Source: Candidatus Doudnabacteria bacterium (GTDB taxonomy: Bacteria; Patescibacteriota; Doudnabacteria; UBA920). Taken from it: a DNA stretch of 53,479 bases. Positions 1,716 through 48,306 of this stretch are shown in pieces; position 1 is the stretch's first letter; every line of letters begins with the position of its first letter. Position numbers and translations under genes: made by a program. The stretch is taken from NCBI GenBank assembly GCA_023245895.1, contig JAHFJJ010000005.1, positions 1 through 53,479 of the forward strand, in the 5' to 3' direction. The notes beneath the pieces are model-generated. The model did not search any database. It was given only the letters and a program-made list of their open reading frames with translations, and was not told where the DNA came from.

Positions 1716-1769
1716 GTAGTTGCTCGATTAATCGATCCGCCTAGGCGGACTGATAAATCAGGCAACTAC
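1716..1769. repeat. compound hairpin repeat, family F2 (GTAGTTGC...GATAAATC...GCAACTAC)
   Basis: Outer stem GTAGTTGC/GCAACTAC encloses the mini-palindromes TCGATTAATCGA, TCCGCCTAGGCGGA and CTGATAAATCAG. 52 of 54 nt are identical to 10196-10249. Confidence 0.85.
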
Positions 1770-4921: not shown

Positions 4922-4984
4922 CAAAGATTTTAAAGATTCAATTGACAAAAAATAAAAATTAACCCATAATCTAAAGTTAAATTT

Positions 4985-5296
4985 ATGAATAGACTCGACA
5001 TCCCAATTCCGGTGGAAATAAGGACCTTTTTAACAGATTTGTTAAAAGAGGCGAAAATTGAAAATCCCGACCCGGCGTTAAAGGAAATGATGATAGACGA
5101 CTTGTACGAACGGCTACAGGTGCGTCTTATACAGGTTTTGGCCGAGCATATGGAAGCCAAGGATTTAGAAAAATACGAAGAATTAGCCGGAGTCGACCAG
5201 CTAAAAGCCATGGAATTTTTACAATCCAAAAACAATAAAATGCCCGAATATTTTTTGCAGGCAATGCAGGAATTCAGGCAGACGTTTTTAAGCTAA
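4985..5296 (+). CDS. small hypothetical protein (103 aa)
   Basis: Same-strand ORF lying between the two giant genes (63-nt and 21-nt gaps). Helical and acidic. No family recognised with confidence. Confidence 0.7.
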   Translation: MNRLDIPIPVEIRTFLTDLLKEAKIENPDPALKEMMIDDLYERLQVRLIQVLAEHMEAKDLEKYEELAGVDQLKAMEFLQSKNNKMPEYFLQAMQEFRQTFLS

Positions 5297-5317
5297 ATAT
5301 TTTTAATTTAAATTCAT

Positions 5318-10195: not shown

Positions 10196-10249
10196 GTAGT
10201 TGCTCGATTCATCTATCCGCCTAGGCGGACTGATAAATCAGGCAACTAC
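10196..10249. repeat. compound hairpin repeat, family F2
   Basis: GTAGTTGCTCGATTCATCTATCCGCCTAGGCGGACTGATAAATCAGGCAACTAC, with 2 mismatches to 1716-1769. Confidence 0.85.
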
Positions 10250-19071: not shown

Positions 19072-19087
19072 AGACCATTTTTAGGCT

Positions 19088-19139
19088 GTAGCGTGCCCAT
19101 TTATGGGCGGCTTGGATCGCCGATAAATCGGCACGCTAC
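19088..19139. repeat. compound hairpin repeat, family F2 variant
   Basis: Outer stem GTAGCGTGCC / GGCACGCTAC encloses GCCCATTTATGGGC and GCCGATAAATCGGC mini-hairpins. The 3' half recurs inside CDS 28078-29001 (28777-28800). Confidence 0.75.
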
Positions 19140-19157
19140 AAGGTGAAGCAAAAAGGT

Positions 19158-27223: not shown

Positions 27224-27348
27224 TGTTTCCTCCGTCGCCTAGATTGATAAATCGTCGGCTAGGTTTTTGCCCGTTATTGGGTAGGGGAATTGTAAGTTAT
27301 GGGCGGGGTTTAGTCAATGTGGTAGAATGGAAGTACAATTAACCAACT

Positions 27349-27385
27349 AACCCTCACCCCGCCCCTCTCCCAAGGGGAGAGGGGG
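27349..27385. repeat. hairpin repeat, family F3 (AACCCTCACCCC..CCCTCTCCC-N-GGGAGAGGG)
   Basis: AACCCTCACCCCGCCCCTCTCCCAAGGGGAGAGGGGG. The same element occurs at 40953-40987, 46155-46191 and 47077-47111. Confidence 0.85.
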
Positions 27386-27396
27386 ATGGAATTCTT

Positions 27397-30610: not shown

Positions 30611-30626
30611 ATCAAATAAGATAATT

Positions 30627-30722
30627 AAGAACCAAGAATCAAGACCGCAAGAACCAAGGAAGAGCCAAGTTTGAAATTTTAAAACTTGGAATTTGCTTGG
30701 ATCTTGGCATCTTGGATCTTGG
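30627..30722. repeat. ~100-nt periodic long hairpin, family F4 (CCAAGA/TCTTGG blocks)
   Basis: AAGAACCAAGAATCAAGACCGCAAGAACCAAGG...AAATTTTAAAA...CTTGGATCTTGGCATCTTGGATCTTGG lies in the groES leader. Paired 6-nt blocks are separated by 2-3-nt mismatches. Confidence 0.8.
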
Positions 30723-30744
30723 AATTTACGACGAAGGAGTAGCT

Positions 30745-31050
30745 ATGAAAGTTAAACCTTTAGGCAACCGCGTTCTGGTAAAACAGCTTTCCAGCGAGGA
30801 AGTCACCAAGAGCGGCATTGTTTTGCCGGACACGGCGGATAAAGAAAAAAAAGCCCAGGGCAAAATTGTGGAATTGGGCAACGGCAGTGAAATAGCAGGA
30901 CTCGGCTTAAAAGTAGGCGACACTGTTGTCTTCGGCAAATACGCCGGGGAGGAAGTGGAAATAGACGAGGACGGCAAAAAAGAAGAATACAAAATTTTAT
31001 ATGTCGGGAAAGAGAAGGATGATAGCGATATTTTAGCATTAATTGAATAA
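30745..31050 (+). CDS. groES: co-chaperonin GroES
   Basis: MKVKPLGNRVLVK. GAAGGAG (30733-30739) lies 5 nt upstream. The ORF-track TTG start at 30697 lies inside the F4 hairpin. Confidence 0.95.
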   Translation: MKVKPLGNRVLVKQLSSEEVTKSGIVLPDTADKEKKAQGKIVELGNGSEIAGLGLKVGDTVVFGKYAGEEVEIDEDGKKEEYKILYVGKEKDDSDILALIE

Positions 31051-31152
31051 GAACCAAGAATCAAGATCGCAAGAACCAAAAAAGAACCAAGTTTAAAATT
31101 TTAAAATTTAGACCTTGGAATTTATTTGGATCTTGGCATCTTGGGTCTTGGG
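31049..31152. repeat. family F4 long hairpin between groES and groEL
   Basis: It begins at the last two bases of the groES TAA: (TA)AGAACCAAGAATCAAGATCGCAAGAACCAA...TTGGATCTTGGCATCTTGGGTCTTGG. Confidence 0.8.
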
Positions 31153-31171
31153 GTTTACATAAAAGGAATTT

Positions 31172-32982: not shown

Positions 32983-33011
32983 TTGACAAAAGGGTCATTT
33001 TAGAGTATACT
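32983..33011 (+). promoter_or_regulatory. near-consensus sigma70 promoter with no ORF behind it
   Basis: TTGACA at 32983-32988, exactly 17 nt, and TATACT at 33006-33011. The next CDS start is 930 nt downstream. Confidence 0.65.
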
Positions 33012-33017
33012 GTCTAG

Positions 33018-33506
33018 TTACGCTAAATCCTCCTCCGCTAAAGCTGCTGCGGACAAGAAAGGCGTACATCTTTAAAAATCCAATAATCTATATGTTTTTG
33101 CAGGAGAACATACGGATATCGCCCTTACATCAATCTTCACCAAGTTGATTGCAGAATAAAATTTTCACATCATACAGATATTTTAGAGAATCATTTATCC
33201 TAGGACTACTTTGATGGAGATTGATGTAAGGACGCTTATGCTCCTAATTTCGTTAACCCGGATTGGGGGCGCTAATGAGCCCGTTTCAAAAATTCATTTC
33301 GGCTGCAATTCTAAAATTTTGGCTGCAAAACCTTCATAGAAGCTCACCGATGCGCAAGGCATCGCCTCGCTTCTCTTCAGGTTTTTCGCTCAAAATTTTA
33401 GAATTTCGCTACGAAAGCAATTTATGAAACGGACTCTTAAAAAAGCCGTATACTCCACAAGAATATTTTTACTAACGTTCTTAAGTGTTTGAGTTTACGG
33501 TTTTTT
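33018..33506 (+). ncRNA. candidate orphan structured ncRNA (or first part of a very long leader)
   Basis: There is no ORF of 60 aa or more on either strand across 32849-33908, and no SD+ATG by eye. The predicted TSS is ~33018. Structures: a long-range stem 33123-33136/33218-33231 (14 bp perfect), a ~160-nt extended hairpin (33277-33436), and a terminator-like hairpin CCGTATACTC/GAGTTTACGG plus T6 (33446-33506). It matches no RNase P, tmRNA, SRP or 6S motifs known to me. Confidence 0.35.
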
Positions 33507-33942
33507 AATTCACATTAATTAAATTATTAATAGTGAATTAATCCGCCGAAGCTTTAGCGAAGGCGGATGTTAAATATATCGAATCTGCGAATGGGACGAA
33601 TCAACGAATGGCTACGAATGCAGACAGAAGATTGCTTATACAGTCGTGAGGCTTAGGAGGGTAAAACTTTATAGACATCTGATGATGTCGTGACCCGCAT
33701 CTCTAAGACTCACTATTGTGGAAGTAATTAGCTAGTAGTAGGTAGTATGTAGCAAGAATTAAGGCAAGGAGTATGGCGGCAAAATAGTTATCTAGGTTGT
33801 CGCCAAACTCCTTCTCTTAAAAAATTAATACTCTGAGGGCCTTAGGCCCTTTTTGTTTTGGGGACTTAAGGCCTTCAGAGTAGGCACGGGCACTTTGAAA
33901 AAAGTGCAGTGATTTATTTTGAGAGGAGGTTAAGGAGGGTAG

Positions 33943-34548
33943 ATGGAGGATTCGACGATAGACAATCAGAAAGAAAATACGAAAGAGCTTCGGCCTTTTT
34001 TTGTTTTGAGCGGCACGGGGCTAAGGTCTTTCCATGTCGACGTTACACGATTGATATCCAGGCAACTTCTTGTGGAAGTTGTATTGCCTGGGCTCATGGA
34101 TGAGGCGCAGGCGATGCTTGACAACGAACGGCGTGCAAGAGAGGCTGCGGAAGAAGAAGTCCGGGGTCTGGGCAGGTTTGTGAAACGTTTTGAGCTTATG
34201 GCGTCTCAGATGCTTTACTCTGGACGGGATTCCTCAAGGCGTGCAGACAGAGTCCGGGCAATTACACTTGTACAAGCTGGAGACCCCAAGGTTCCGGACG
34301 ACCAGATTGTGTTCTTTTTCCCTCGGGGGGAGAAGCCTCAGGTTGCCGCTCCGGTGCCCGCTAAAGCGGCGTCAAAACGGCGGGGAAGAAAGGGCAAGCG
34401 CAAGTGCGGCGTGTGCCAGAGCGCAGAACACGACGCGCGCAACTGCCCGACTAAGCCTTCACCGGCTCCGGAACCGCCAGCGGAAAAACGCGCGGTCAAG
34501 AAATCCGCGAACGCGAAGAAGAAACCGGGACGCAAAAAAAAGAAGTAG
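33943..34548 (+). CDS. CCHC zinc-knuckle protein with a Lys/Arg-rich tail (201 aa)
   Basis: AAGGAGG (33932-33938) lies 4 nt before the ATG. CGVCQSAEHDARNC matches C-x2-C-x4-H-x4-C (nt 34405-34446) and uses all three Cys of the protein. It is flanked by KRRGRKGKRK and KKKPGRKKKK. Confidence 0.8.
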   Translation: MEDSTIDNQKENTKELRPFFVLSGTGLRSFHVDVTRLISRQLLVEVVLPGLMDEAQAMLDNERRAREAAEEEVRGLGRFVKRFELMASQMLYSGRDSSRRADRVRAITLVQAGDPKVPDDQIVFFFPRGEKPQVAAPVPAKAASKRRGRKGKRKCGVCQSAEHDARNCPTKPSPAPEPPAEKRAVKKSANAKKKPGRKKKK

Positions 34549-34655
34549 TTCGGTAGTACGCCGACTGCGAATGGGGGAGTTTTTAAGTGAGTAATCATTT
34601 AGAAATTCCCCCAAAATTTTTAAACAAGTTATAATAGTAAGCGGGATTATTCCCG

Positions 34656-34735
34656 TCCCAAAATCTGCCAGCGAAACGCGTATCCGTCCTTTTAAGGATG
34701 GGTTCCTGCACGGGTTTCGTCGGCAGTTTTTGGGA
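34656..34735 (+). repeat. conserved intergenic hairpin, family H (copy A1)
   Basis: TCCCAAAATCTGCCAGCGAAACGCG...CACGGGTTTCGTCGGCAGTTTTTGGGA. It lies between a T-type hairpin (34572-34613) and the SD of the next gene. It contains the spurious ORF-track ATG at 34698. Confidence 0.7.
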
Positions 34736-34754
34736 AACACAACAGGGAGGAATT

Positions 34755-35030
34755 ATGGATATGCTTTACGTTTTACGTTTTGCTTTTATTTTAGGTTTAG
34801 CATCTGGCTTGTTTGCCAAGCTCGTGCTTAAGGAAAAGCAAAAAAAGTCGCTATGTCGGCTTTGTCTGTTAGCTGCAATTTTGTCAGTGATTGTGTGCTG
34901 CGAGCCTAAAGGAGCCGGGCAGTTATTATGGTGCATTGTTGCCGGTACGATAGCCCATTTTTGGGGCGCGGTTGGGTTTATAAATGTGCACCAATGGGTC
35001 GAGAAACGCAATAAGGGACAAACTATTTAA
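34755..35030 (+). CDS. small membrane protein (91 aa)
   Basis: GGGAGG (34745-34750) lies 4 nt before ATG 34755. Three hydrophobic segments, Cys-rich (CRLCLL, CCEPKG). Confidence 0.7.
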   Translation: MDMLYVLRFAFILGLASGLFAKLVLKEKQKKSLCRLCLLAAILSVIVCCEPKGAGQLLWCIVAGTIAHFWGAVGFINVHQWVEKRNKGQTI

Positions 35031-35044
35031 GTGGTTTGTCCCTT

Positions 35045-35099
35045 GTCAAAATTTGCCAGTGAAGATTACGCGGGGGGTTTCGTAGGCAATTTTTGGGAG
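35045..35099 (+). repeat. conserved intergenic hairpin, family H (copy A2)
   Basis: GTCAAAATTTGCCAGTGAAG...GGTTTCGTAGGCAATTTTTGGGAG. It shows a compensatory change relative to A1 (CTGCC/GGCAG versus TTGCC/GGCAA). A hairpin spanning the stop codon precedes it (35013-35044). Confidence 0.7.
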
Positions 35100-35124
35100 C
35101 GAATTTTTTGCAAAGGAGGTATAA

Positions 35125-35331
35125 ATGAGCAGGCAAGTTAAACTGCCGGTGGTTCTATTCGCGGTTTCTTCATTCATTTGTTTTTTAACGCTGGCAGTAT
35201 CGGAAATTGCCCTATGCAACCGCATTGAGCACGGATGGTATGAGCCCATACTGCTTTTGCTGGCATACTTTACCGCAGTTTCCGCATACACAATAGCGGA
35301 AAAAGATAAGCCTGAAAAAAGGCAACTTTAG
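35125..35331 (+). CDS. small membrane protein (68 aa)
   Basis: AAGGAGG (35113-35119) lies 5 nt before the ATG. Two TM helices. Confidence 0.7.
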   Translation: MSRQVKLPVVLFAVSSFICFLTLAVSEIALCNRIEHGWYEPILLLLAYFTAVSAYTIAEKDKPEKRQL

Positions 35332-35343
35332 GAGGAACAAAGA

Positions 35344-35622
35344 GTGTGGACTTTTGTTTTGTGTTTTGTCTTTGGCATGGCTTTTGTGTTTTTGCACTTG
35401 GATCGCAATGCATCGCCTTTCCTTAAGAAGTATGCCTTTGTGGCCTTTCCTGTTGTAGTCTTGGGCTCGGCCATGTTGGTTGAACCTAAGGCCGCAGATA
35501 GGTTGGCTATTCTTACGCTCTTTAATATGTTGTTTGTGTTCGTAGGCATAATTGTAGCAGTTGTGGTGGGCCTGATTTTTAACCGGCGGGGCAAGACGCC
35601 GCGAACCAATACTCCGCGGTAA
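35344..35622 (+). CDS. small membrane protein (92 aa)
   Basis: AGGAGG (35330-35335, overlapping the previous stop) lies 8 nt before the GTG. Three TM helices and a basic tail. Confidence 0.7.
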   Translation: MWTFVLCFVFGMAFVFLHLDRNASPFLKKYAFVAFPVVVLGSAMLVEPKAADRLAILTLFNMLFVFVGIIVAVVVGLIFNRRGKTPRTNTPR

Positions 35623-35642
35623 AGCCAAAAACGGCTACCCCT

Positions 35643-35683
35643 AACGAGGCATAAGCGCCGAGCGCTTAGCCTCGTTCTTTTTT
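35643..35683 (+). terminator. intrinsic terminator closing orphan array A
   Basis: Long stem AACGAGGCATAAGCGC / GCGCTTAGCCTCGTT followed by CTTTTTT. Confidence 0.85.
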
Positions 35684-35811: not shown

Positions 35812-35982
35812 ATGGGCGTCCCTAAAAAGCACAAAACCCGCAGCGGCCGCAACCAGCGCCGCAGCCACCACGCTTTAAAAGCAAAATCTTTCGCGGTTTG
35901 CAAAAATTGCGGGCAACCGGTTATGCCGCATTTGCCTTGCAAAAATTGCGGGTATTATAAAGGCAGGAAAGTTACTAAATAA
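35812..35982 (+). CDS. rpmF: 50S ribosomal protein L32
   Basis: Hand translation gives MGVPKKHKTRSGRNQRRSHHALKAKSFAVCKNCGQPVMPHLPCKNCGYYKGRKVTK* (56 aa, below the ORF-track cut-off). It has the typical L32 N-terminus and a CxxC...CxxC ribbon. GGAG lies 7 nt upstream. Confidence 0.9.
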   Translation: MGVPKKHKTRSGRNQRRSHHALKAKSFAVCKNCGQPVMPHLPCKNCGYYKGRKVTK

Positions 35983-36118
35983 GAACCAAGACCCAAGAAA
36001 ACAAGAATCAAAAAAGAACCAATTTTTTCCGCCGGAGGCGGATCCGCCACTGGCGGAAAATTTAAAATTTTAAACCTTGGAATTTAGTTGGGTCTTGGCA
36101 TCTTGATTCTTGGTTCTT
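35981..36118. repeat. family F4 long hairpin between rpmF and nusB, with a nested F5-type insertion
   Basis: It starts in the rpmF TAA: AAGAACCAAGACCCAAGAAAACAAGAATCAAAAAAGAACCAA...TTGGGTCTTGGCATCTTGATTCTTGGTTCTT. The loop holds CCGCCGGAGGCGG and CCGCCACTGGCGG mini-hairpins. Confidence 0.8.
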
Positions 36119-36125
36119 TAATTTT

Positions 36126-36551
36126 ATGGCTAACAGGCACCTATCACGCACAATAGCAATGCAATCCCTCTTTGAATGGGATTTTAACGGACGCGATGAA
36201 GACTTGGCAGGTATTGTAAAAAACCATATTAAGGAATTTTCGGGAGCCAACGAAGAGAGTAGTTTTATTTTTGAACTGGCGGACGGCGTTCAAAAAAATT
36301 TGCCTGCCATAGATGAAATTATTACCAAGCACGCGCCGGAGTGGCCCATAGACCAAATTCCGCCCGTTGACAGGAACGTCCTGCGCATTGGCGTTTACGA
36401 ACTAATGTTTTTAAAACAAGTGCCGCCCAAGGTAGCAATTAACGAGGCGGTGGAGCTGGGCAAAACATTCGGCGGAGAGTCATCCGGGAAATTTGTAAAT
36501 GGCGTGCTTGGCGCGCTATACAAAGAAGCGGGGATAGAAGAGAAGGCATAG
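36126..36551 (+). CDS. nusB: transcription antitermination factor NusB
   Basis: [13 protein letters not shown] and [12 protein letters not shown]. 141 aa. Confidence 0.9.
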
Positions 36552-40870: not shown

Positions 40871-41006
40871 TTATCAAGAGTTCCCCGCCAAGGCGGGGGC
40901 GGCAACCTGCTTAAGAATTAAGTTCCTACCTTTTGCAAGGTGCTATCTTTGGAACCCTCACCCTAGCCCTCTCCCAGAGGGAGAGGGAACAAGGCACAGA
41001 GGATAA
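40871..41006 (+). promoter_or_regulatory. SAM riboswitch of the SAM-I clan (simplified P2, SAM-I/IV-like)
   Basis: S-box landmarks appear in order. They are TTATCAAGAG (40871-40880), P2 hairpin CCCCGCC-AAG-GCGGGGG, and GGCAACC. Next come P3 CCTGC...GCAAGG and AAGGTGCTA. The P4 hairpin is the F3 repeat (40953-40987), and the 3' P1 strand is CAGAGGATAA (GATAA pairs with TTATC). It lies directly upstream of metK. Confidence 0.65.
40953..40987. repeat. family F3 hairpin repeat lying in the P4 position of the SAM riboswitch
   Basis: AACCCTCACCCTAGCCCTCTCCCAGAGGGAGAGGG. Confidence 0.8.
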
Positions 41007-42887: not shown

Positions 42888-42948
42888 TGGCTTGGTTAAG
42901 AAGGAAATCTTAAAAGCGCATTCGACAAAAGGCCCTTAAAATTAACCC

Positions 42949-42998
42949 TTGACAATAAGGGGTTTTTATCTTATTATAAGCAGTTATTCTGCTATAAT
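42949..42998 (+). promoter_or_regulatory. tandem promoters heading orphan array B
   Basis: P1 is TTGACA (42949-42954), 17 nt, TATTAT (42972-42977). P2 is TGC-TATAAT (42990-42998). Confidence 0.55.
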
Positions 42999-43025
42999 CC
43001 TCATTAACAAATTGTAGGCTTTTGT

Positions 43026-43064
43026 AAGTCCCAAGTCTGGAATTTCATTGCAGATTTAGGAGTT
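43026..43064 (+). repeat. family H hairpin (copy B1, in the leader of the first DksA-like gene)
   Basis: AAGTCCCAAGTCTG...CAGATTTAGGAGTT, with 12 of 14 positions paired. Confidence 0.6.
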
Positions 43065-43130
43065 CCGAAAGCAAGGAACACAGACGCGCCTAGAAAACTG
43101 AAAGCCAACCATAACAGGAGGAAGTAGAAA

Positions 43131-43478
43131 TTGAAGAAGAGTGATATAGAAAAGTACCGGCAGGTTCTTGTTGCAAAGTTGGAACAACACCTTGGTTCTG
43201 CCAAGCGCAAGGTCAGGGCGGCCACAGCCAGGATTGACTCAAGGGCCATAGACGACATAGCTCAGGCAGAGAACGATAGGGAGCTGTTGAGTCGTGGGGC
43301 CGCAAGCGACAATAAGGTCGCGGCGGCAATCGCTCGGGCCATTGCCCGGATAGACCATGGCACCTACGGAATCTGTCTGGGTTGTGAGGAAGAAATGCCT
43401 AAAAAGAGGCTGGATGCGGTTCCATGGGCCGCGCTTTGCGTTCCCTGCAAGGACCAGGAAGGGAACGGGAAAAAGTAA
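43131..43478 (+). CDS. TraR/DksA family C4 zinc-finger protein (115 aa)
   Basis: TTG start 9 nt after AGGAGG (43116-43121). N-terminal coiled coil, then CLGCEEEMPKKRLDAVPWAALCVPC (C-x2-C-x17-C-x2-C). Confidence 0.85.
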   Translation: MKKSDIEKYRQVLVAKLEQHLGSAKRKVRAATARIDSRAIDDIAQAENDRELLSRGAASDNKVAAAIARAIARIDHGTYGICLGCEEEMPKKRLDAVPWAALCVPCKDQEGNGKK

Positions 43479-43524
43479 TTTCATCAACCGGGATACACAT
43501 CAACTAAGCTGGCGTGTATCCCGA

Positions 43525-43582
43525 AACTCCTAAGTTCGTAAATCTGCCAGCCATTAAGCGGCGGATTGTGGGTTTAGGAGTT
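43525..43582 (+). repeat. family H hairpin (copy B2)
   Basis: AACTCCTAAGTTCGTAAATCTGCC-loop-GGCGGATTGTGGGTTTAGGAGTT. About a 23-bp helix with one bulge and 7 G-U pairs. The unit-specific hairpin CGGGATACAC/GTGTATCCCG (43489-43523) precedes it. Confidence 0.75.
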
Positions 43583-43669
43583 CCCAAAAGGAGGAGCTAG
43601 TTTTTTGTCTCGTTTCGCGCGCGTTAACGTTAGCAACTCAACTGATCGGATCTGAAAGGCAGGAAAAAC

Positions 43670-44077
43670 ATGCAGGACAAGAAAGTGCAGAAGTTCAAAC
43701 AGCGGCTGACTGAGGAGTATCAGAAGTTAATTCGGTCCATCAACCGGAGCCGGCTGGCCGAAGAGGAAATCACCCTGGAGAACACCGAAGATGAGGGTGA
43801 ACTGGCCACGATTAGCCACAACAAGGAGCTACTTTACAACCTCCATGAGAGCGACTTTCAAAGATTGAAGTCAATCCAGGAGGCGCTCAAACGGATGGAC
43901 CGCGGCGAGTACGGAGAGTGCCTGCGATGTTCCGAGTACATAAACGAAAAGCGTCTGCTGGCGGTGCCGTGGGCGACGCTGTGCATTACTTGCCAGGAAG
44001 AAGCGGAAAGCAAACAATCTTCCGGGCGGCCGGTTCGGGTAATAGTCGGCAAGCATGACGACGAAGACGACGACTAG
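43670..44077 (+). CDS. TraR/DksA family C4 zinc-finger protein (135 aa), paralogue of 43131-43478
   Basis: Coiled coil with the acidic tip EDEGELA, then CLRCSEYINEKRLLAVPWATLCITC. Acidic tail DDEDDD. Confidence 0.85.
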   Translation: MQDKKVQKFKQRLTEEYQKLIRSINRSRLAEEEITLENTEDEGELATISHNKELLYNLHESDFQRLKSIQEALKRMDRGEYGECLRCSEYINEKRLLAVPWATLCITCQEEAESKQSSGRPVRVIVGKHDDEDDD

Positions 44078-44125
44078 CCAATGATTCTTAGGAGCGGGAA
44101 GTGAATAAATACCACTTTCCGCTCC

Positions 44126-44167
44126 GACTCCCAAGTTTGTAAATAGTTTTTTGTAGATTTGGGAGTC
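44126..44167 (+). repeat. family H hairpin (copy B3)
   Basis: GACTCCCAAGTTTGTAAA-loop-TTTGTAGATTTGGGAGTC, an 18-bp helix including G-U pairs. The unit-specific hairpin GGAGCGGGAAGTG/CACTTTCCGCTCC (44091-44125) precedes it. Confidence 0.75.
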
Positions 44168-44188
44168 TACTACATGCAGGAGGACCTC

Positions 44189-44698
44189 ATGAGAAAAGAT
44201 GTTTTTTTGTTTTTGTGCCTATTTACGGGCCTTTGTTTCGCTGGCGCGAACCAAGTATACCAGACTCAGGCGGCGAACAATGAAAGGGAATCCGAGCGCC
44301 AAGTATACATTTATTGGAGCAACCCTAAAATCTTGCGGGCTAAGTTTCTTCTGGTAAGTGAAACCCTTTCGCGGGACAAGGAGGCTATGCTGGAAGGCAA
44401 CATTAGTACCGGAGAGGTTCGCTATACCGGCAAGTCGGGCAGTTTTACAGTTTTCTATTTTGACCGAACCACCCGGGGCGGCTGGCAGGAGCTGGGGCGG
44501 GCAATTCCAGAAAAAGGCTTGAAAGTTAACAAAGCACGGAGACCCAACTGCCCGGTTATGTTCTGGTTGGAAGAGAAGTCCTACAACCTTTTTACGCTAT
44601 TTGAGAGTACCACCCGAGAGGTGTGCGTAGGTTGGAGCACGAACGACCTGGTTTTAAGGAAAGAAAAGGAAGGGAAAAATAATGGCAGGCAAAATTAA
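44189..44698 (+). CDS. secreted hypothetical protein (169 aa)
   Basis: AGGAGG (44178-44183) lies 5 nt before ATG 44189. Signal peptide MRKDVFLFLCLFTGLCFAGANQ. No family recognised. Confidence 0.75.
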   Translation: MRKDVFLFLCLFTGLCFAGANQVYQTQAANNERESERQVYIYWSNPKILRAKFLLVSETLSRDKEAMLEGNISTGEVRYTGKSGSFTVFYFDRTTRGGWQELGRAIPEKGLKVNKARRPNCPVMFWLEEKSYNLFTLFESTTREVCVGWSTNDLVLRKEKEGKNNGRQN

Positions 44699-44963
44699 CA
44701 GAGACTTGGAAAGAAACCAGCTTCTGCAAAGCCTAAAGCGGCTGGAAGATGTTCCCAAGGACTCTGGGGCGTTCCGCCAGGTCGCGCGAAGGCTGGCGGA
44801 GAGTTTTAACCTCTGCCTAAGTTTAGCCCAGGGCTTCAGCCGGGACCACGCAAGCGACGTGTTTTTGGAAGTCCAGCCATTGCCTAATAATTTGGCCGAC
44901 ATGAAAGAGGCCGGTTACCTGCAGGCAATCCAGCTGGTAAAAAGGCAGCTGGAAAAGAAATAA
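44682..44963 (+). CDS. hypothetical protein (93 aa)
   Basis: The ATG overlaps the previous gene by 17 nt. A purine-rich AAGGAAGGGA lies upstream. Helical. No family recognised. Confidence 0.6.
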   Translation: MAGKINRDLERNQLLQSLKRLEDVPKDSGAFRQVARRLAESFNLCLSLAQGFSRDHASDVFLEVQPLPNNLADMKEAGYLQAIQLVKRQLEKK

Positions 44964-45019
44964 CAACAACAGCGGGATAGTGAGTATAACTATTAATTTA
45001 TTTATACTCACTATCCCTG

Positions 45020-45065
45020 AACTCCCAAGTTCGGATCCGCTTAGGCGGATGCAGGTTTGGGAGTT
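45020..45065 (+). repeat. family H hairpin (copy B4)
   Basis: AACTCCCAAGTTCGGATCCGC-TTAG-GCGGATGCAGGTTTGGGAGTT. The 15-bp unit-specific hairpin GGGATAGTGAGTATA/TATACTCACTATCCC (44974-45017) precedes it. Confidence 0.75.
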
Positions 45066-45085
45066 AGGAAATAAGGAGGAGTCTA

Positions 45086-45352
45086 GTGGCTAAAAAGAGT
45101 AAAGCGGTTTCCGCTTCGGAGATTGCGAAAGCAAAAGACAAGCTGCTTAAATGCGAGCAGACTATGAGTCGGGTAGGCCGCATTAAGGAGCTTAGCGATT
45201 TGTTGGAAGCTTACAGCGGAAAAATTGTCCCGGTCGACGCCAGGGGGGCACTGTATGTCAGATTGACCAATGAACAAAGCGAAGAGAAGCGCATGGCCGC
45301 TCTCGCAGAGTTCGTGGACAAGTATCTTACCAGTTCACCCGAGGCTGAGTAA
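45086..45352 (+). CDS. hypothetical protein (88 aa)
   Basis: AAGGAGG (45073-45079) lies 6 nt before the GTG. Lys-rich N-terminus, helical. Confidence 0.7.
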   Translation: MAKKSKAVSASEIAKAKDKLLKCEQTMSRVGRIKELSDLLEAYSGKIVPVDARGALYVRLTNEQSEEKRMAALAEFVDKYLTSSPEAE

Positions 45353-45385
45353 TAATTGTATTTTTCGACTAACCTGGAGGAACGG

Positions 45386-45658
45386 ATGAAGCACTTGCCG
45401 CGAATGGTTTTGGCGGTTTTTTTGATTTTGGGTTGGGGATTGTATTTCCAAGGCCGTAGCGATGCCCGCAAGGTGGAGCAGGCCGAGATTTACCTGAAAG
45501 ACCTAAAAAATTTGGATGATTTTTTGCAACGGGCAGTAATGCCCACCATCCAATACTATAGTTGCAAAGACTCCAGGCCGGTTGGTTTGGAATTCTGCCC
45601 GGCCGCGACCATTACCGACGCAGGAGGAAAAGGCGTCCAAATTAAGCTACAACAATGA
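45386..45658 (+). CDS. membrane-anchored / secreted small protein (90 aa)
   Basis: GGAGG (45376-45380) lies 5 nt before ATG 45386. N-terminal helix MVLAVFLILGWGLYF. Two Cys. Confidence 0.7.
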   Translation: MKHLPRMVLAVFLILGWGLYFQGRSDARKVEQAEIYLKDLKNLDDFLQRAVMPTIQYYSCKDSRPVGLEFCPAATITDAGGKGVQIKLQQ

Positions 45659-45791
45659 CATTGGCAGAAAGTTGCGAATTTTATTCCCAACTTTCTGCCC
45701 ACCACTTTGGGTGTAACCAATATAGGTTATACTTAGGGTGGTGGGAACGCACAGTTGTCTGAGGCGGTCTCATTTACAGGAGGATACCCTT

Positions 45792-46061
45792 ATGAGGGAA
45801 TCCGAGAGCTTGTTAGTCGGCAGTCTGGCGGTAACGATGATTCTCGCGTTTATTACGCTCATCGTTCTGCTGGCCCAGCCGGGGCATCATTTGCCCTTGC
45901 TTGTGATTCTGAACACGCTTGCTCTAATGCGGCTCGCGGCGAGGTTTTATGTTTATCTTAACGACTCGCCCAGCGCGAAAGCGGCACGCCGCGAAAAAGA
46001 AATAACAACACTAATAGTACTACCAAGGTTTTACTGGCTGCCTTCCGGCAGCTGTTCGTAG
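45792..46061 (+). CDS. small membrane protein (89 aa)
   Basis: AGGAGG (45778-45783) lies 8 nt before ATG 45792. Two TM helices. Upstream hairpins lie at 45663-45699 and 45698-45746. Confidence 0.7.
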   Translation: MRESESLLVGSLAVTMILAFITLIVLLAQPGHHLPLLVILNTLALMRLAARFYVYLNDSPSAKAARREKEITTLIVLPRFYWLPSGSCS

Positions 46062-46066
46062 CCTTA

Positions 46067-46145
46067 GTCAGGGAATTTGTGGGAAAGCCAACCCACAAAT
46101 TCCCTGACGCCATCCTAATTCTCGCCCACAGATGGGCGTTTTTTT
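46067..46145 (+). terminator. double hairpin closing orphan array B
   Basis: A 17-bp perfect stem GTCAGGGAATTTGTGGG / CCCACAAATTCCCTGAC (46067-46108) is followed by CGCCC-CAGAT-GGGCG plus T7 (46123-46145). Confidence 0.8.
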
Positions 46146-46154
46146 GTTGCTATT

Positions 46155-46191
46155 AACCCTCACCCCGGCCCTCTCCCAGGGGGAGAGGGGG
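46155..46191. repeat. family F3 hairpin repeat flanked by a 16-bp direct duplication
   Basis: AACCCTCACCCCGGCCCTCTCCCAGGGGGAGAGGGGG. Its first 35 nt are identical to the in-frame copy at 47077-47111. It is flanked by GGGCGTTTTTTTGTTG at 46134-46149 and 46201-46216. Confidence 0.9.
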
Positions 46192-46228
46192 AGGAGGTAC
46201 GGGCGTTTTTTTGTTGGGTTTTTTGGTT

Positions 46229-46257
46229 TTGGAAGATTTTAAAATTTAGGCTACAAT
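46229..46257 (+). promoter_or_regulatory. sigma70-type promoter of the tkt operon
   Basis: TTGGAA at 46229-46234, 17 nt, and TACAAT at 46252-46257. Confidence 0.5.
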
Positions 46258-46293
46258 AGAAAGACCCTAAAATTAGACGATTTATTGAGCCTT

Positions 46294-48306
46294 ATGGATA
46301 ATAATATTGAACAGCTGGCCAAGCTTATCCGCTACTATATACTAACCTCCACAACCGCGGCCGGGAGCGGACATCCGTCTTCTTCTTTGTCGGCAACCGA
46401 CTTAATGGCGGTTTTAATGTTTGGTAGAAAACAGAAGAACACGGAAACGGGCGCAACGGATGAACACGGAAAGGAAGCATTTTTTCGGACGGATTTGGAG
46501 AATCACGATAATTTGAATAACGACCGTTTGATTTTTAGCAAAGGCCATGCTTCGCCTTTGTTTTATGCTTTGTACGCGGCGTCTGGTCAGCGGCCCTCCT
46601 TCGCCAAGGCTGCGGCGGGCGAGTCGGCTGAATCATCGGCGGAATTAAAACGCGCACTCGAGCCAGAAGAACTATTAACTTTACGAAAGTTTGATAGCCG
46701 ACTGGAAGGCCATCCGACTTTGGAGTTTCCTTTTACGGAAGTGCCGACCGGGTCTTTGGGTCAGGGTTTGTCCGTGGGTTTGGGTATGGCTTTAAATGCC
46801 AGGCTGGATGGGTTGTTATATCGCACTTTTGTATTGCTGGGCGATTCTGAAATGGCCGAGGGTAGCGTGTGGGAAGCTATGGCTTGTGCGTCATTTTACA
46901 AATTGAATAATTTATTCGCGATTTTAGACTGTAACCGTTTGGGTCAAAGAGGGGAGACTATGTACGGCCACCATACGGAAGTTTATGAAGCCAGGGCTAA
47001 GGCGTTTGGATGGGAGACGGTGGTGGTGGATGGACATGATTTGGGGCAAATACAATCAGCATTTGAAGCTGTCACTAACCCTCACCCCGGCCCTCTCCCA
47101 GGGGGAGAGGGAGGAAAACCCACGATGATTATTGCCAAAACTTTAAAGGGCAAGGGTGTTTCGTTTATGGAAGACAAGGATGGCTGGCATGGCAAGGCCA
47201 TGAACCAGGAAGAGTTAAAAAAGGCTTTGGAAGAGTTGGGGGAGGTTGATAAGAGTATCATCGGGGAAGTTGCAAAACCCTCACCTGTCTCGACAGCCCT
47301 CGAGACATCCTCTCCCAAAGGGAGAGGATGGGAGCCAAATTTCACCGATTATTCATCCGGCAAGCCAGTTTCCACGCGCAAGGCGTATGGTAACGCTTTA
47401 GCTAATTTGGTGGATGCTAATAATCAAGTTGTAGTTTTGGACGCGGAAACCAGTAATTCAACTTTTGCCGATAGTGTTAAGAAAACCCATCCCGAGAGGT
47501 TTTTTGAAATGTATATCGCGGAGCAGAATATGGTGGGAGCGGCTTTGGGTTTTTCACGGAGGGGAAAAGTGTCTTTTGTTTCCACTTTTGCCGCATTCTT
47601 TTCACGGGCGTTCGATCAAATCCGTATGTCCCAATACGCCAAGGCCAACATTAAATTCGTCGGCTCCCATGCCGGCGTTTCCATTGGCGAAGACGGGGCT
47701 TCGCAAATGGGCCTTGAAGAAATAGCCATGTTTAGGACGCTTTTGGATTCTGTTGTGCTATATCCCTCCGATGCCATCTCCACGGAAAAATTAGTGGCCG
47801 AAGCGGCTAAACATTTTGGAAATGTTTATATTCAGACTACGCGGAAGGACACCGCGATTCTATATACATCAACTGACGAATTTTCCATCGGCGGCTCCAA
47901 AACTTTAAAATCATCTGCAAACGATGTCGCGACCGTCATTGGCGCAGGCATAACCGTCCACGAAGCTTTGGCGGCTTACGAAGAATTGCAAAAAGAGGGA
48001 GTTAACATCCGCGTAGTAGATTTATACAGTGTAAAGCCGCTTGATGTTGAAACTTTATTAAAGGCCGCAAGAGAGACTAAAGCCATTATCACGGTTGAAG
48101 ATGCTTATCCTGAAGGCGGAATTGGCGAAGCAGTTAAAGGAGCGCTAAGTGCTTCCACCTTCGCTGAAGCTTCGGCGGACAAGAAGTGCCTAGTGCTAAG
48201 CCTTGCTGTTAAAAAAATGCCCAAGAGCGGCAAGCCGGAGGAACTTTTAGCTTTTGAGGAAATAGATAAAAATGCTATTATAAAGCAAATTAAACAATTA
48301 GCTTAA
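46294..48306 (+). CDS. tkt: transketolase (fused N- and C-terminal halves) with several repeat-derived in-frame inserts
   Basis: GSGHPSSSLS, GDSEMAEGSVWEA, the GHD...KPTMIIAKTLKGKG region, and C-terminal pyrimidine-binding and TKC domains. ATG 46294 is preferred over TTG 46285. Confidence 0.92.
   Translation: MDNNIEQLAKLIRYYILTSTTAAGSGHPSSSLSATDLMAVLMFGRKQKNTETGATDEHGKEAFFRTDLENHDNLNNDRLIFSKGHASPLFYALYAASGQRPSFAKAAAGESAESSAELKRALEPEELLTLRKFDSRLEGHPTLEFPFTEVPTGSLGQGLSVGLGMALNARLDGLLYRTFVLLGDSEMAEGSVWEAMACASFYKLNNLFAILDCNRLGQRGETMYGHHTEVYEARAKAFGWETVVVDGHDLGQIQSAFEAVTNPHPGPLPGGEGGKPTMIIAKTLKGKGVSFMEDKDGWHGKAMNQEELKKALEELGEVDKSIIGEVAKPSPVSTALETSSPKGRGWEPNFTDYSSGKPVSTRKAYGNALANLVDANNQVVVLDAETSNSTFADSVKKTHPERFFEMYIAEQNMVGAALGFSRRGKVSFVSTFAAFFSRAFDQIRMSQYAKANIKFVGSHAGVSIGEDGASQMGLEEIAMFRTLLDSVVLYPSDAISTEKLVAEAAKHFGNVYIQTTRKDTAILYTSTDEFSIGGSKTLKSSANDVATVIGAGITVHEALAAYEELQKEGVNIRVVDLYSVKPLDVETLLKAARETKAIITVEDAYPEGGIGEAVKGALSASTFAEASADKKCLVLSLAVKKMPKSGKPEELLAFEEIDKNAIIKQIKQLA
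47077..47111. repeat. family F3 repeat inserted in frame in tkt
   Basis: It starts on a codon boundary (783 nt from the ATG) and encodes NPHPGPLPGGEG. A variant double hairpin at 47286-47330 encodes part of the inter-domain linker (STALETSSPKGRGW). Confidence 0.9.

What the first reader, a model, noticed from the sequence alone, without database searches (positions are those of the whole stretch)
42949..46145. Orphan array B: hairpin-punctuated, cassette-like series of small genes led by two DksA/TraR zinc-finger paralogues
One promoter region (42949-42998) and one strong terminal double hairpin (46067-46145) enclose five same-strand units:
- 43131 (DksA/TraR-like);
- 43670 (DksA/TraR-like);
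- 44189 (secreted) plus the overlapping 44682;
- 45086 plus 45386;
- 45792 (membrane).

Each boundary shows the same grammar. After the stop codon comes a strong, unit-specific GC hairpin without a U-tract (43489-43523, 44091-44125, 44974-45017). The conserved hairpin H follows (43026-43064, 43525-43582, 44126-44167, 45020-45065), and then AGGAGG and the start.

The H consensus is 5' RACTCCYAAGTYYG ... YRRRTTTRGGAGTY 3', with helices of 14-23 bp. Compensatory changes between copies support a selected structure. The outermost pair is A-T in B2 and B4 but G-C in B3. The seventh pair is T-A in B2 but C-G in B3 and B4.

The helices contain many G-T pairs that would be C-A mismatches on the other strand, so the sense strand (mRNA or top-strand ssDNA) is the folded one. 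A degenerate relative (TCCCAACTTTCTGCC, 45663-45699) precedes the last unit. H-type sequences occur only here and in array A (34656-35099).

The layout recalls integron cassette arrays or CALINs. However, the RYYYAAC/GTTRRRY core sites are missing and no integrase is in the window. Alternatives are a dedicated RNA processing, stability or translation-control element for a family of accessory genes. In B3, the 3' arm GGGAG lies 8 nt before an in-frame ATG at 44174, so the hairpin could mask an SD.

I regard this, together with array A, as the best candidate for an undescribed system in the window.
Basis: partly seen in the sequence, partly recalled or inferred. Interest (0 to 1): 0.75.

Follow-up and report, generated by a model that had tools for sequence, protein, structure and literature searches.

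The report
Conserved hairpins punctuating accessory gene modules
In a small group of Candidatus Doudnabacteria (tiny, probably symbiotic bacteria), each module in fast-changing clusters of small accessory genes starts with one conserved hairpin and ends with a module-specific hairpin, a layout that resembles integron gene cassettes but fails the integron tests and most likely acts on the messenger RNA.

Summary
Window 42949-46145 is one transcription unit with a single strong promoter and a single canonical terminator. It holds five modules that parse as [H-position hairpin – SD – gene(s) – unit-specific hairpin].

- **Where H occurs.** A covariance model finds H four times in the window, all in this array and all on the sense strand. 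In about 594 kb of related CPR DNA it hits only nine loci: eight gene arrays with the same grammar and one lone heptad-type hairpin (L046).
- **Arrays as hot spots.** The arrays lie at conserved sites: downstream of metK, and upstream of a LOG gene. Gene content differs completely between relatives. Indels and replacements end exactly at H edges.
- **Gene origins.** One gene (dksA2) is 78-85% identical at protein level to a core gene of Acidobacteriota. Two others are ORFans.
- **Conservation of H.** The lower stem ACUCC/GGAGU and one G·U pair are invariant. One position is usually a C·A mismatch. The upper stem covaries. A long subtype is 90% identical between genomes whose dksA2 genes are 71% identical.
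- **Integron tests.** Integron membership fails.

Best reading: an RNA-level 5' module cap, for stability, processing or insulation, that also serves as a recombination anchor. A new DNA-level cassette system is not excluded.

The parts
42949..42977 (+). Array B promoter (TTGACA-17-TATTAT)
   Evidence: 11 of 12 matches. It is the only strong promoter-like site between 42000 and 46400.
43026..43064 (+). H1, in the 5' leader of module 1, with no unit-specific hairpin before it
   Evidence: R1 49.5 bits on +, 18.7 on -; fold. The lower stem has a G·G and a C·A.
43131..43478 (+). dksA1, DksA/TraR-type zinc-finger protein (115 aa)
   Evidence: Pfam PF01258, E = 2e-9. Its closest relatives are at most 45% identical and lie in non-CPR-like gene contexts.
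43489..43523 (+). Unit-specific 3' hairpin of module 1 (13 bp); ends 1 nt before H2
43525..43582 (+). H2
   Evidence: R1 45.7 bits on +, 23.9 on -; -27.0 kcal/mol sense against -19.9 antisense.
43670..44077 (+). dksA2 (135 aa), a captured acidobacterial-type dksA
   Evidence: It is 78-85% identical at protein level to Solibacteraceae, Terriglobia and Sulfopaludibacter genes, where examined a core gene beside ychF (with mraZ in two of three contexts), and 88% identical to a copy in another Doudnabacteria H array. The homology stops at the ends of the coding sequence.
44091..44125 (+). Unit-specific 3' hairpin of module 2 (13 bp); 0 nt gap to H3
44126..44167 (+). H3
   Evidence: R1 52.5 bits on +, 27.3 on -; -20.9 kcal/mol sense against -11.8 antisense.
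44189..44698 (+). Predicted secreted protein (169 aa), an ORFan
   Evidence: Its only match among 5.8 billion proteins is itself; no Pfam family.
44682..44963 (+). Overlapping 93-aa gene in the same module
44974..45017 (+). Unit-specific 3' hairpin of module 3 (18 bp); 2 nt gap to H4
45020..45065 (+). H4
   Evidence: R1 44.0 bits on +, 29.6 on -.
45086..45352 (+). 88-aa gene of module 4
   Evidence: The same array order is found on contigs from five samples.
45386..45658 (+). 90-aa gene with an N-terminal hydrophobic segment, module 4
45663..45699 (+).
   Evidence: no R1 hit; no sense bias (-20.4 against -23.1).
45698..45745 (+). Hairpin in the H position of module 5. It is not H by sequence but is rich in G·U pairs and specific to the sense strand.
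   Evidence: -33.7 kcal/mol sense against -20.7 antisense; fold.
45792..46061 (+). Membrane protein (89 aa), module 5
46067..46108 (+). Unit-specific 3' hairpin of module 5 (17 bp, perfect)
46123..46145 (+). Canonical intrinsic terminator that ends the array
   Evidence: stem at 46123-46138 followed by TTTTTTT.
33943..35676 (+). Array A, a related array. It holds a CCHC-knuckle ORFan (33943-34548), a hairpin at 34572-34613, the A-type hairpin 34655-34738, a membrane gene (34755-35030), a hairpin at 35011-35046, the degenerate A-type hairpin 35040-35101, two membrane genes (35125-35331 and 35344-35622) and a terminator (35643-35676).
   Evidence: An A-type counterpart occurs in L241 at 4918-4991 and an intermediate in L051 at 4031-4076 (R1 21.8 bits). 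The CCHC protein has no real homologue.

Best explanation
H is a sense-strand RNA hairpin that forms the 5' end-cap of each expression module in operons of accessory genes. The unit-specific hairpin is the 3' end-cap of the same module.

The array is transcribed from one promoter through all the hairpins, none of which has a U-tract. The back-to-back pair [3' cap of module n][0-2 nt][H of module n+1] acts as RNA punctuation. It either blocks exonucleases coming from both sides or directs an endonucleolytic cut (RNase III-like, or a dedicated H-binding factor). Either way, each cistron gets its own protected 5' and 3' ends and decays or is translated independently of its neighbours.

The invariant lower stem (ACUCC/GGAGU), the invariant G·U pair and the usual C·A mismatch suggest that a trans-acting factor reads H. 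A bare hairpin would not need them.

Because the same roughly 40-70 nt element flanks every module, it also supplies portable homology. Through that homology, modules are deleted, inserted and swapped at a few chromosomal hot spots.

Shown: anatomy, conservation, strand bias, restriction to the arrays, and module turnover with breakpoints at H edges. Inferred: that the folded molecule is RNA, that the effect is on stability or processing, and that a specific factor exists.
For: 1. There is a single promoter and a single canonical terminator, and the spacers from H to the start codon are too short for promoters (20-21 nt after H3 and H4). The hairpins must therefore be transcribed through.
2. 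All five window units parse as [H-position hairpin – genes – unit-specific hairpin]. This includes the first unit, where H1 has no preceding hairpin, and the last, where the 3' hairpin is followed by a terminator and not by H.
3. In 18 of 19 internal H copies from 7 genomes or contigs, a 10-18 bp unit-specific hairpin ends 0-2 nt before H.
4. Sense-strand specificity. R1 scores exceed antisense scores by 14-31 bits. H-position hairpins are more stable in sense in 19 of 23 copies, by 5.2 kcal/mol on average (p = 4e-4), whereas the unit-specific hairpins show no bias. One G·U pair is invariant in 19 of 19 copies.
5. At the fifth boundary the H position is held by an unrelated hairpin that is G·U-rich and stable only in sense. 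This suggests selection for a sense-strand fold at that position and not only for the H sequence.
6. The upper stem covaries: 25 cells with changes on both sides against 9.9 expected, reached by 0 of 500 shuffles, and the register controls collapse.
7. H-L is 90% identical between L241 and L265, while dksA2 in the same arrays is 71% identical.
8. The same genome carries other families of long hairpins in the leaders of core genes and between them (groES, groEL, nusB), so hairpins of this kind are not confined to the accessory arrays.
9. No recombinase was found among the scanned window ORFs, and no integrase-type ORF is evident in the flanks I read.
Against: - There is no transcript data, so cleavage, stabilisation and even co-transcription are inferred.
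- A plain stabilising hairpin does not need an invariant lower-stem sequence or a conserved mismatch.
- The 90-97% identity of some copies between genomes fits a recognised site or a recently mobile element as well as it fits RNA.
- In the commonest form of H each strand carries one wobble and one mismatch, so the lower stem alone does not choose a strand.
- A 0-2 nt linker between two helices is a poor substrate for single-strand endonucleases such as RNase E.
- In L004 two H copies lie before convergent genes, so there they are not 5' caps of a co-directional gene.
- The copies are related to one another, so the statistics overstate independence.
Confidence: 0.45

Rival explanations
1. H is a DNA-level recombination site, folded as top-strand ssDNA or as a cruciform. 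An unidentified recombinase encoded elsewhere in these genomes acts on it. The arrays would then be a cassette-capture system that works like an integron but is not one, with the cassette being everything between two H sites.
For: - Arrays sit at conserved hot spots with unrelated content: downstream of metK in the window, L051, L140, L169 and L241, and upstream of LOG in L019, L137 and L212.
- Between L241 and L265 one unit is replaced exactly between the 3' edge of one H and the 5' edge of the next. That interval is 55% identical against 50.5% for shuffled sequence, while the flanking H-L is 90% identical.
- The unit-wise indel between L212 and L019 has its junction at the 3' edge of H.
- The arrays hold a foreign dksA and ORFans.
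- All copies share one orientation. The stem base is conserved, with a fixed mismatch and wobble, and the distal part is variable, which is the logic of attC.
Against: - There are no RYYYAAC/GTTRRRY boxes and no bulged bases.
- No tyrosine, serine or HUH recombinase was found among the scanned window ORFs or in the flanks I read.
- The array order is identical in all five samples of the same species.
- One junction (L137 6294) lies inside the H arm or loop, which looks like an ordinary deletion.
- The fifth boundary uses a non-H hairpin.
- Every breakpoint seen is equally explained by homologous recombination or slippage between H repeats.
Confidence: 0.25
2. H is a selfish or neutral miniature palindromic repeat, REP-like or MITE-like, that inserts immediately 3' of existing hairpins and has spread within recently acquired DNA. 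Any RNA effect would be incidental.
For: - Distinct subfamilies (short S1 and S2, long L, A-type) are conserved over their whole length across genomes, while the flanks are unrelated. L004 against L212 is 95% over 42 nt, and L004 against L019 is 82% over 84 nt.
- The tight 0-2 nt adjacency to a hairpin looks like target-site choice.
- The same genomes clearly carry at least one other small mobile element, the D2 family, with a 16-nt duplication at 46134-46149 and 46201-46216 and presence or absence in the loop of the terminal hairpin.
Against: - No target-site duplication is apparent around H from reading the flanks.
- All copies have one orientation relative to transcription.
- No copy was found outside the arrays in the 53 kb window or in about 594 kb of related DNA.
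- Within-genome copies (L019 H-L 1 against 3, 85.5%) are less alike than copies in different genomes (94-97%). That argues for conservation of each copy in place and against recent bursts.
- H-L keeps its position relative to the downstream gene in L241 and L265.
Confidence: 0.12
3. H is an RNA operator. A specific RNA-binding protein, or an RNA polymerase-modifying complex of the nut/boxB type, binds every H. It either co-regulates translation of all accessory modules or allows read-through of the many hairpins.
For: - The lower stem is invariant, with a fixed G·U pair and a recurrent C·A mismatch.
- Arrays often begin with small very basic or zinc-finger proteins: a 36-aa Arg/Lys-rich peptide in L169, basic peptides in L241 and L265, DksA/TraR in window array B and a CCHC knuckle in array A.
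- DksA/TraR proteins bind the secondary channel of RNA polymerase (established knowledge).
Against: - The L019, L137 and L212 arrays have no such first gene.
- No candidate binding protein is conserved across the arrays.
- The true SD sequences are not inside H.
Confidence: 0.15

Closest known systems
Integron cassette arrays / CALIN (attC sites)
   Same: - Same-strand arrays of small, mostly promoterless ORFan genes behind one promoter.
- Each unit is bounded by an imperfect hairpin with a conserved base and a variable distal part.
- Content varies between relatives, and foreign genes are captured.
   Different: - No R-box core sites, no extrahelical bases and no IntI found.
- H parses as the 5' element of a unit and sits next to a second, unit-specific hairpin.
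- The sense (top) strand folds best.
- The host is a very small CPR genome, a size class in which complete integrons were not found (PMC4889954).
REP/BIME repetitive extragenic palindromes of enterobacteria
   Same: Families of 35-70 nt imperfect palindromes lie in transcribed intergenic regions of operons. They can stabilise upstream mRNA and act as recombination substrates (established knowledge).
   Different: - H is confined to accessory arrays in the DNA examined and is not dispersed.
- H has a single orientation.
- H has no GTAG motif.
- H is always paired with a unit-specific hairpin.
Phage T7 RNase III processing sites between early and late genes
   Same: A family of related hairpins with an internal mismatch or loop lies between the cistrons of a long transcript. 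Cleavage leaves each mRNA with a protective hairpin end (established knowledge).
   Different: Cleavage is untested here, the H sequence is unrelated, and the host is a bacterial chromosome and not a phage. No H was found in IMG/VR contigs.
Neisseria 'minimal mobile elements' and other flexible islands exchanged by homologous recombination
   Same: Different gene cassettes occupy the same slot between conserved flanking genes in related strains. A ComEC competence gene is present in the window.
   Different: Here the slots are subdivided by a dedicated conserved hairpin, and the modules are single small genes.
Heptanucleotide-repeat hairpins (cyanobacterial STRR; similar hairpins seen here in Acidobacteriota)
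   Same: The H lower stem reads as two heptads, AACTCCC|AAGTTCG. Hairpins built from (AACTCCC)n...(TTGGGAG)n are common in Acidobacteriota MAGs and soil contigs.
   Different: Those are long tandem-heptad hairpins at the 3' ends of genes in high-GC genomes, without the two-hairpin grammar. No link to the dksA donor loci was found. The identification with STRR rests on my own knowledge and was not tested.

Membership tests
Integron / CALIN | attC sites with R''/R' core boxes RYYYAAC ... GTTRRRY | tested here: not met
   A regex search on both strands of arrays A and B gave 0 pairs, against 0.57 expected by chance.
Integron / CALIN | Match to the IntegronFinder attC covariance model | not testable with these tools
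   The model is not available here. An Rfam search at E up to 10 over 42900-46300 returned only chance-level miRNA, sRNA and cis-regulatory matches far below their gathering scores.
Integron / CALIN | Integron integrase (IntI) next to the array (complete integron only; not required for CALIN) | tested here: not met
   No recombinase domain was found among 30 window ORFs scanned, and none is evident in the ORFs read in the L137 and L019 flanks. The rest of the genome was not seen.
Integron / CALIN | The site lies 3' of each ORF, so that cassette = ORF + attC and the last cassette ends in a site | tested here: not met
   The first unit is preceded by H and the last is not followed by H. H-L stays with the downstream gene when the upstream gene is replaced.
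Integron / CALIN | Cassette content varies between related genomes | tested here: met
REP / BIME | Copies dispersed genome-wide, including in core operons and in both orientations | tested here: not met
   R1 hits lie only in the arrays, in the 53 kb window and in 594 kb of related loci, and all are in sense orientation. Whole genomes were not scanned.
REP / BIME | Conserved 5' GTAG and an associated RAYT transposase | tested here: not met
   H has no GTAG and no RAYT was found among the scanned window ORFs. A different window repeat (1716-1769 and 10196-10249) does begin with GTAG.
Intrinsic (Rho-independent) terminator | GC-rich hairpin followed directly by a U-tract | tested here: not met
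   Within the array only 46123-46138 qualifies. H and the unit-specific hairpins lack T-runs. H-like stems with T-runs after tRNA genes do occur in unrelated contigs (L178, L196).
RNase III processing site (T7-type) | Intercistronic hairpin of about two helical turns with an internal mismatch or loop | tested here: met
   Stems of 13-23 bp with a recurrent C·A mismatch at pair 7.
RNase III processing site (T7-type) | Cleavage by RNase III in vivo or in vitro | not testable with these tools
   No transcript data or enzymology is available.
Any Rfam family | Score at or above the gathering threshold | tested here: not met
   Only tRNA-Gly reaches threshold in the whole window. Nothing meaningful appears at E up to 10.
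MITE | Target-site duplication flanking each copy | tested here: inconclusive
   I saw no consistent duplication when reading the flanks of H2-H4 and the copies in other loci. No formal test was run.

The most novel reading that the evidence does not exclude
H is the recombination site of a previously unknown gene-cassette capture system in CPR bacteria that does not use an integron integrase. Modules bounded by H hairpins would be excised, inserted and exchanged at dedicated chromosomal hot spots (downstream of metK, upstream of LOG). Genes taken from other phyla, such as an acidobacterial dksA and possibly genes from the host organism, would be captured in this way.
Probability: 0.2. Interest if true: 0.85.

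Novelty: new variant of a known kind. Interest (0 to 1): 0.62.

Why it matters
CPR bacteria have tiny genomes, few known mobile elements and almost no described regulatory RNA. This finding shows a lineage-specific, strongly conserved structured element that marks the boundaries of the genome's fastest-changing genes.

If H acts on RNA, it is a compact way of making any newly acquired gene expressible and separately stable inside an existing operon. It would also be a candidate first cis-acting RNA family specific to Doudnabacteria.

If H acts on DNA, it is a new cassette system outside the integron paradigm.

In either case, the arrays mark where these symbionts store acquired genes. The acidobacterial-type dksA inside them gives a testable hint about which organisms they exchange DNA with, and perhaps which they live on.

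Tried and rejected
- **Rfam.** Searches at the gathering threshold and at E up to 10 matched no known family.
- **attC core boxes.** None found.
- **Phage origin.** A scan of IMG/VR for H found only unrelated terminators.
- **Strain-level shuffling.** Contigs with identical proteins from five samples all keep the same order.
- **Homologous cassettes in other arrays.** An all-against-all BLASTP of array ORFs found none apart from the two dksA genes and two L004 paralogues. The secreted protein and the CCHC protein are ORFans.
- **H as a generic genome repeat.** The covariance model found no copy outside the arrays.
- **Punctuating hairpins as a general feature of metK-tkt inserts.** The inserts in L052, L056, L058 and L062 have no repeated hairpin family.
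- **Acidobacterial heptad hairpins arriving together with dksA.** The dksA donor-type loci lack such hairpins.
- **More arrays via the terminal-hairpin motif.** The last genome scan returned only L004 and L019 again.
- **Literature.** Searches for CPR hairpin repeats and for attC in Patescibacteria gave nothing relevant.
- **SD masking by H.** Rejected as a general role, because the real SD sequences lie downstream of H.
- **Internal promoters.** None convincing, and two spacers are only 20-21 nt long.

Full report
**1. The observation**

Four H hairpins lie at 43026-43064, 43525-43582, 44126-44167 and 45020-45065.
- The intergenic segments fold much better than dinucleotide shuffles: z = -4.6, -6.9, -8.0 and -6.9 for boundaries 2 to 5, and -2.1 for the leader that holds H1.
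- The consensus scan finds one strong promoter (TTGACA-17-TATTAT, 42949-42977, 11 of 12 matches) and one canonical terminator (46123-46138 plus T7). It finds no convincing internal promoter.
- The two leading genes carry the DksA/TraR zinc finger. The other five genes match no Pfam family.
- Rfam recognises nothing here.

**2. A cleaner parse**

Every unit reads as [H-position hairpin – spacer with AGGAGG – gene(s) – unit-specific hairpin].
- H1 follows the promoter with no hairpin before it.
- The last gene ends with its own hairpin (46067-46108) and then the terminator, with no H after it.
- The H position at that boundary is filled by 45698-45745. This hairpin is not H by sequence, but it is G·U-rich and stable only on the sense strand (-33.7 against -20.7 kcal/mol).

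**3. H is a real family outside the window**

A pattern scan of 185,579 species genomes gave mostly chance hits. It also picked up Candidatus Doudnabacteria MAGs with the same element and the same grammar (L004, L019).

More copies came from the metK neighbourhoods of relatives (L051), from JGI metagenome contigs (L137, L140, L169, L212) and from dksA2 relatives (L241, L265/L266).

I built a covariance model from 15 short copies (R1).
- In the window it finds only the four known copies, at 44-52 bits on the + strand and 19-30 bits on the - strand. The next best hit scores 13.6 bits.
- In 594,087 bases of CPR loci it finds copies in only nine loci: eight arrays and the lone heptad-type hairpin in L046. 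These include long-type copies that were not used for training.
- In contigs fetched later, it finds two more copies in each of L265 and L266 (55 and 27 bits) and none in the acidobacterial loci.
- About 35 other Doudnabacteria or Patescibacteria metK regions have no H. The inserts they carry show no punctuating hairpin family.

H is therefore lineage-restricted and, in all the DNA I could see, array-restricted. Whole genomes were not available, so this is not yet a genome-wide statement.

**4. Anatomy of H**

On 19 distinct copies (alignment A1):
- Pairs 2-6 (ACUCC/GGAGU) are nearly invariant.
- Pair 7 is unpaired in 12 of 19 copies, mostly C·A. The rest are CG 3, UA 2 and UG 2.
- Pairs 8-9 are invariant A-U, and pair 10 is an invariant G·U (19 of 19).
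- Pairs 13, 14, 16 and 17 change on both sides.
- Overall, 86.4% of cells pair, against 78.6% in shuffles (0 of 500 shuffles reach this). There are 25 cells with double changes against 9.9 expected (0 of 500). Sliding the register by one column collapses pairing to 54-56%.

The helix is therefore selected.

Subfamilies exist and are shared between genomes:
- two short types;
- a long type (…GGTTGTACCAC…GCGATCGC…GTGGTACAA…) in L004, L019, L241, L265 and, truncated, L137;
- an A-type (CCCAAA.CTGCCAGCGA…TCGTCGGCAG.TTTGGG) in window array A and L241, with an intermediate form in L051.

**5. The two-hairpin rule and the strand**

In 18 of 19 internal H copies, a unit-specific hairpin of 10-18 bp (-11 to -24 kcal/mol) ends 0-2 nt before H.

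H-position hairpins are more stable on the sense strand in 19 of 23 cases. The mean difference is -5.2 kcal/mol (Wilcoxon p = 4e-4). The unit-specific hairpins show no bias (mean -0.3, p = 0.62). The copies are related to one another, so these p-values are only indicative.

In the commonest form of H, each strand carries one wobble and one mismatch in the lower stem. The strand preference therefore comes mainly from the upper stem and from the invariant G·U.

**6. The arrays are hypervariable modules at conserved sites**

metK and tkt are neighbours in relatives, but the interval between them varies:
- about 70 bp (L055), 0.2 kb (L053) or 0.4 kb (L054, L067);
- a band-7 gene only (L065);
- a band-7 gene plus two H units (L051);
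- in the window, a 227-aa gene plus five units.

H arrays also follow metK in L140, L169 and L241. In L169 and L241 they run on to rpmF-nusB, the genes that follow window array A.

A second hot spot lies upstream of a LOG gene. There a conserved left leader (92% identical between L019 and L137) and a conserved terminal hairpin enclose six genes in L019, three in L137 and four in L212. None of these genes is homologous to any other.

Breakpoints fall at the edges of H:
- Relative to L212, L019 lacks one whole unit, and the junction is at the 3' edge of H.
- Between L241 and L265, dksA2, the long H and the next small membrane gene are retained. The gene plus its unit-specific hairpin between the two H elements is replaced. 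That interval is 54.9% identical against 50.5% for shuffled sequence, while H-L is 90.3% identical and the dksA2 coding sequence only 70.6%.
- One junction, at L137 6294, lies inside an H arm and looks like a plain deletion.

Within the window's own species, contigs from five samples keep the same order.

**7. Where the genes come from**

- dksA2 (43670-44077) has more than 500 close relatives. The closest in genomes are Acidobacteriota (Solibacteraceae, Terriglobia, Ca. Sulfopaludibacter) at 78-85% protein identity. In the acidobacterial contexts examined the gene lies beside ychF, and beside mraZ in two of three. The only CPR hits are other H arrays.
- The homology stops at the ends of the coding sequence.
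- dksA1 has only relatives at 45% identity or less, in non-CPR-like gene contexts.
- The secreted protein and the CCHC protein are ORFans.

The arrays thus collect foreign and novel genes.

**8. What it is not**

- It is not an integron or CALIN by the features I could test. There are no R-box pairs and no recombinase among 30 scanned window ORFs or in the flanks I read. H lies on the 5' side of its unit.
- It is not a terminator, because it has no U-tract.
- It is not phage-borne in IMG/VR.
- It is not a dispersed REP in the DNA available.

**9. Mechanism**

I favour an RNA-level role. H would be the 5' cap and the unit-specific hairpin the 3' cap of each module in a long transcript. This would give each cistron protected ends, either by blocking exonucleases or through a cut at the hairpin pair. 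A factor that reads the invariant lower stem probably exists.

The same genome uses other long hairpin families in the leaders of core genes and between them (groES, groEL, nusB). That makes a general habit of mRNA punctuation plausible.

Because H flanks every module, it also gives recombination a handle. That explains the turnover without invoking a dedicated enzyme.

I put this reading at about 0.45. A DNA-level cassette system (0.25), an RNA operator or antitermination site (0.15) and a selfish palindromic repeat (0.12) remain open. The first two are not mutually exclusive with the favoured reading. No transcript or enzymatic evidence exists for any of them.

**10. Verdict**

The integron reading fails the membership tests, but 'works like a cassette array' survives. 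The element appears to be undescribed. I rate it a new variant of the repetitive intercistronic palindrome and cassette-boundary theme, of moderate to high interest.

Noticed in passing
window 43670-44077; loci L222-L240, L241, L265: dksA2 is 78-85% identical at protein level, and about 74% at nucleotide level, to the core dksA of Acidobacteriota (Solibacteraceae, Terriglobia, Ca. Sulfopaludibacter). Among CPR it occurs only inside H arrays. This implies gene transfer between the phyla and may hint at the partner or host of these Doudnabacteria.
   Followed up: partly
window 46150-46200 (also 27348-27386, 40952-40990, 47076-47114); L019 ~3660-3715, L137, L004: A roughly 50-nt element, TAACCCTCACCCCGGCCCTCTCCCAGGGGGAGAGGG, sits in the array terminator between 16-nt direct repeats GGGCGTTTTTTTGTTG (46134-46149 and 46201-46216). 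One copy lies in frame inside the transketolase gene, where it encodes ...NPHPGPLPGGEGG.... A related element is present in the loop of the terminal hairpin in L019, L137 and L004 but absent in L212. It looks like a small mobile insertion element.
   Followed up: partly
window 30624-30738, 31046-31167, 35978-36129: A second family of long hairpins (z = -5 to -7) is built from heptads (AAGAACC AAGAATC ... / CTTGGAT CTTGGCAT ...). It lies upstream of groES, between groES and groEL, and between rpmF and nusB. The third copy carries an extra hairpin inserted in its loop.
   Followed up: partly
loci L001, L005, L010, L017, L021, L023, L030, L031, L036, L038, L043, L048, L049; many of L132-L218: Acidobacteriota MAGs and soil contigs carry intergenic hairpins made of tandem heptads, (AACTCCC)n ... 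(TTGGGAG)n, up to -150 kcal/mol. The unit has the same sequence as the H lower stem. Several Nostoc genomes were also hit by the pattern scan, which recalls the heptanucleotide STRR repeats of cyanobacteria (from my own knowledge). The relationship to H is unknown.
   Followed up: partly
window 32983-33940: A strong promoter (TTGACA-17-TATACT, 32983-33011) is followed by about 900 nt with no convincing ORF and a terminator-like hairpin at 33835-33851, just upstream of array A. This may be a long leader or a non-coding RNA. Rfam finds nothing there.
   Followed up: no
window 43587-43655: Directly after H2, a strong SD (AAAGGAGGAG) is followed 10 nt later by TTG, which opens a 16-codon ORF (43605-43655) that ends 14 nt before the dksA2 start. 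It could be a leader peptide or a translational coupling device.
   Followed up: no
window 1716-1769 and 10196-10249; 19087-19140: Two nearly identical 54-nt palindromes begin with GTAG (GTAGTTGCTCGATT...CAGGCAACTAC), and there is a similar TGTAGCG...CGCTACA hairpin. The GTAG recalls the REP elements recognised by RAYT transposases.
   Followed up: no
L019 155-244, L137 6204-6293, L212 (rc) ~40-130, L004 (two copies): The arrays upstream of LOG start with a conserved promoter-leader that holds an inverted repeat, ACAATTTTGGGCGC...GGTGCCCAAAATTGT, with arm polarity opposite to H. In L004 this leader is duplicated together with a divergently transcribed gene of about 105 aa that could be a regulator.
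   Followed up: partly
L169 (rc) ~5300-5650, L241 2280-2520, L265 1-110: The arrays downstream of metK in three genomes share a structured leader (…GACCCGCAGAGTATTT…CCTGCGGGTCTTT…), followed by a very basic peptide of 36-39 aa.
   Followed up: no
L196 and L178: Stems with the H lower-stem sequence, followed by a T-run, lie directly after tRNA genes in unrelated contigs. There they look like ordinary terminators.
   Followed up: no
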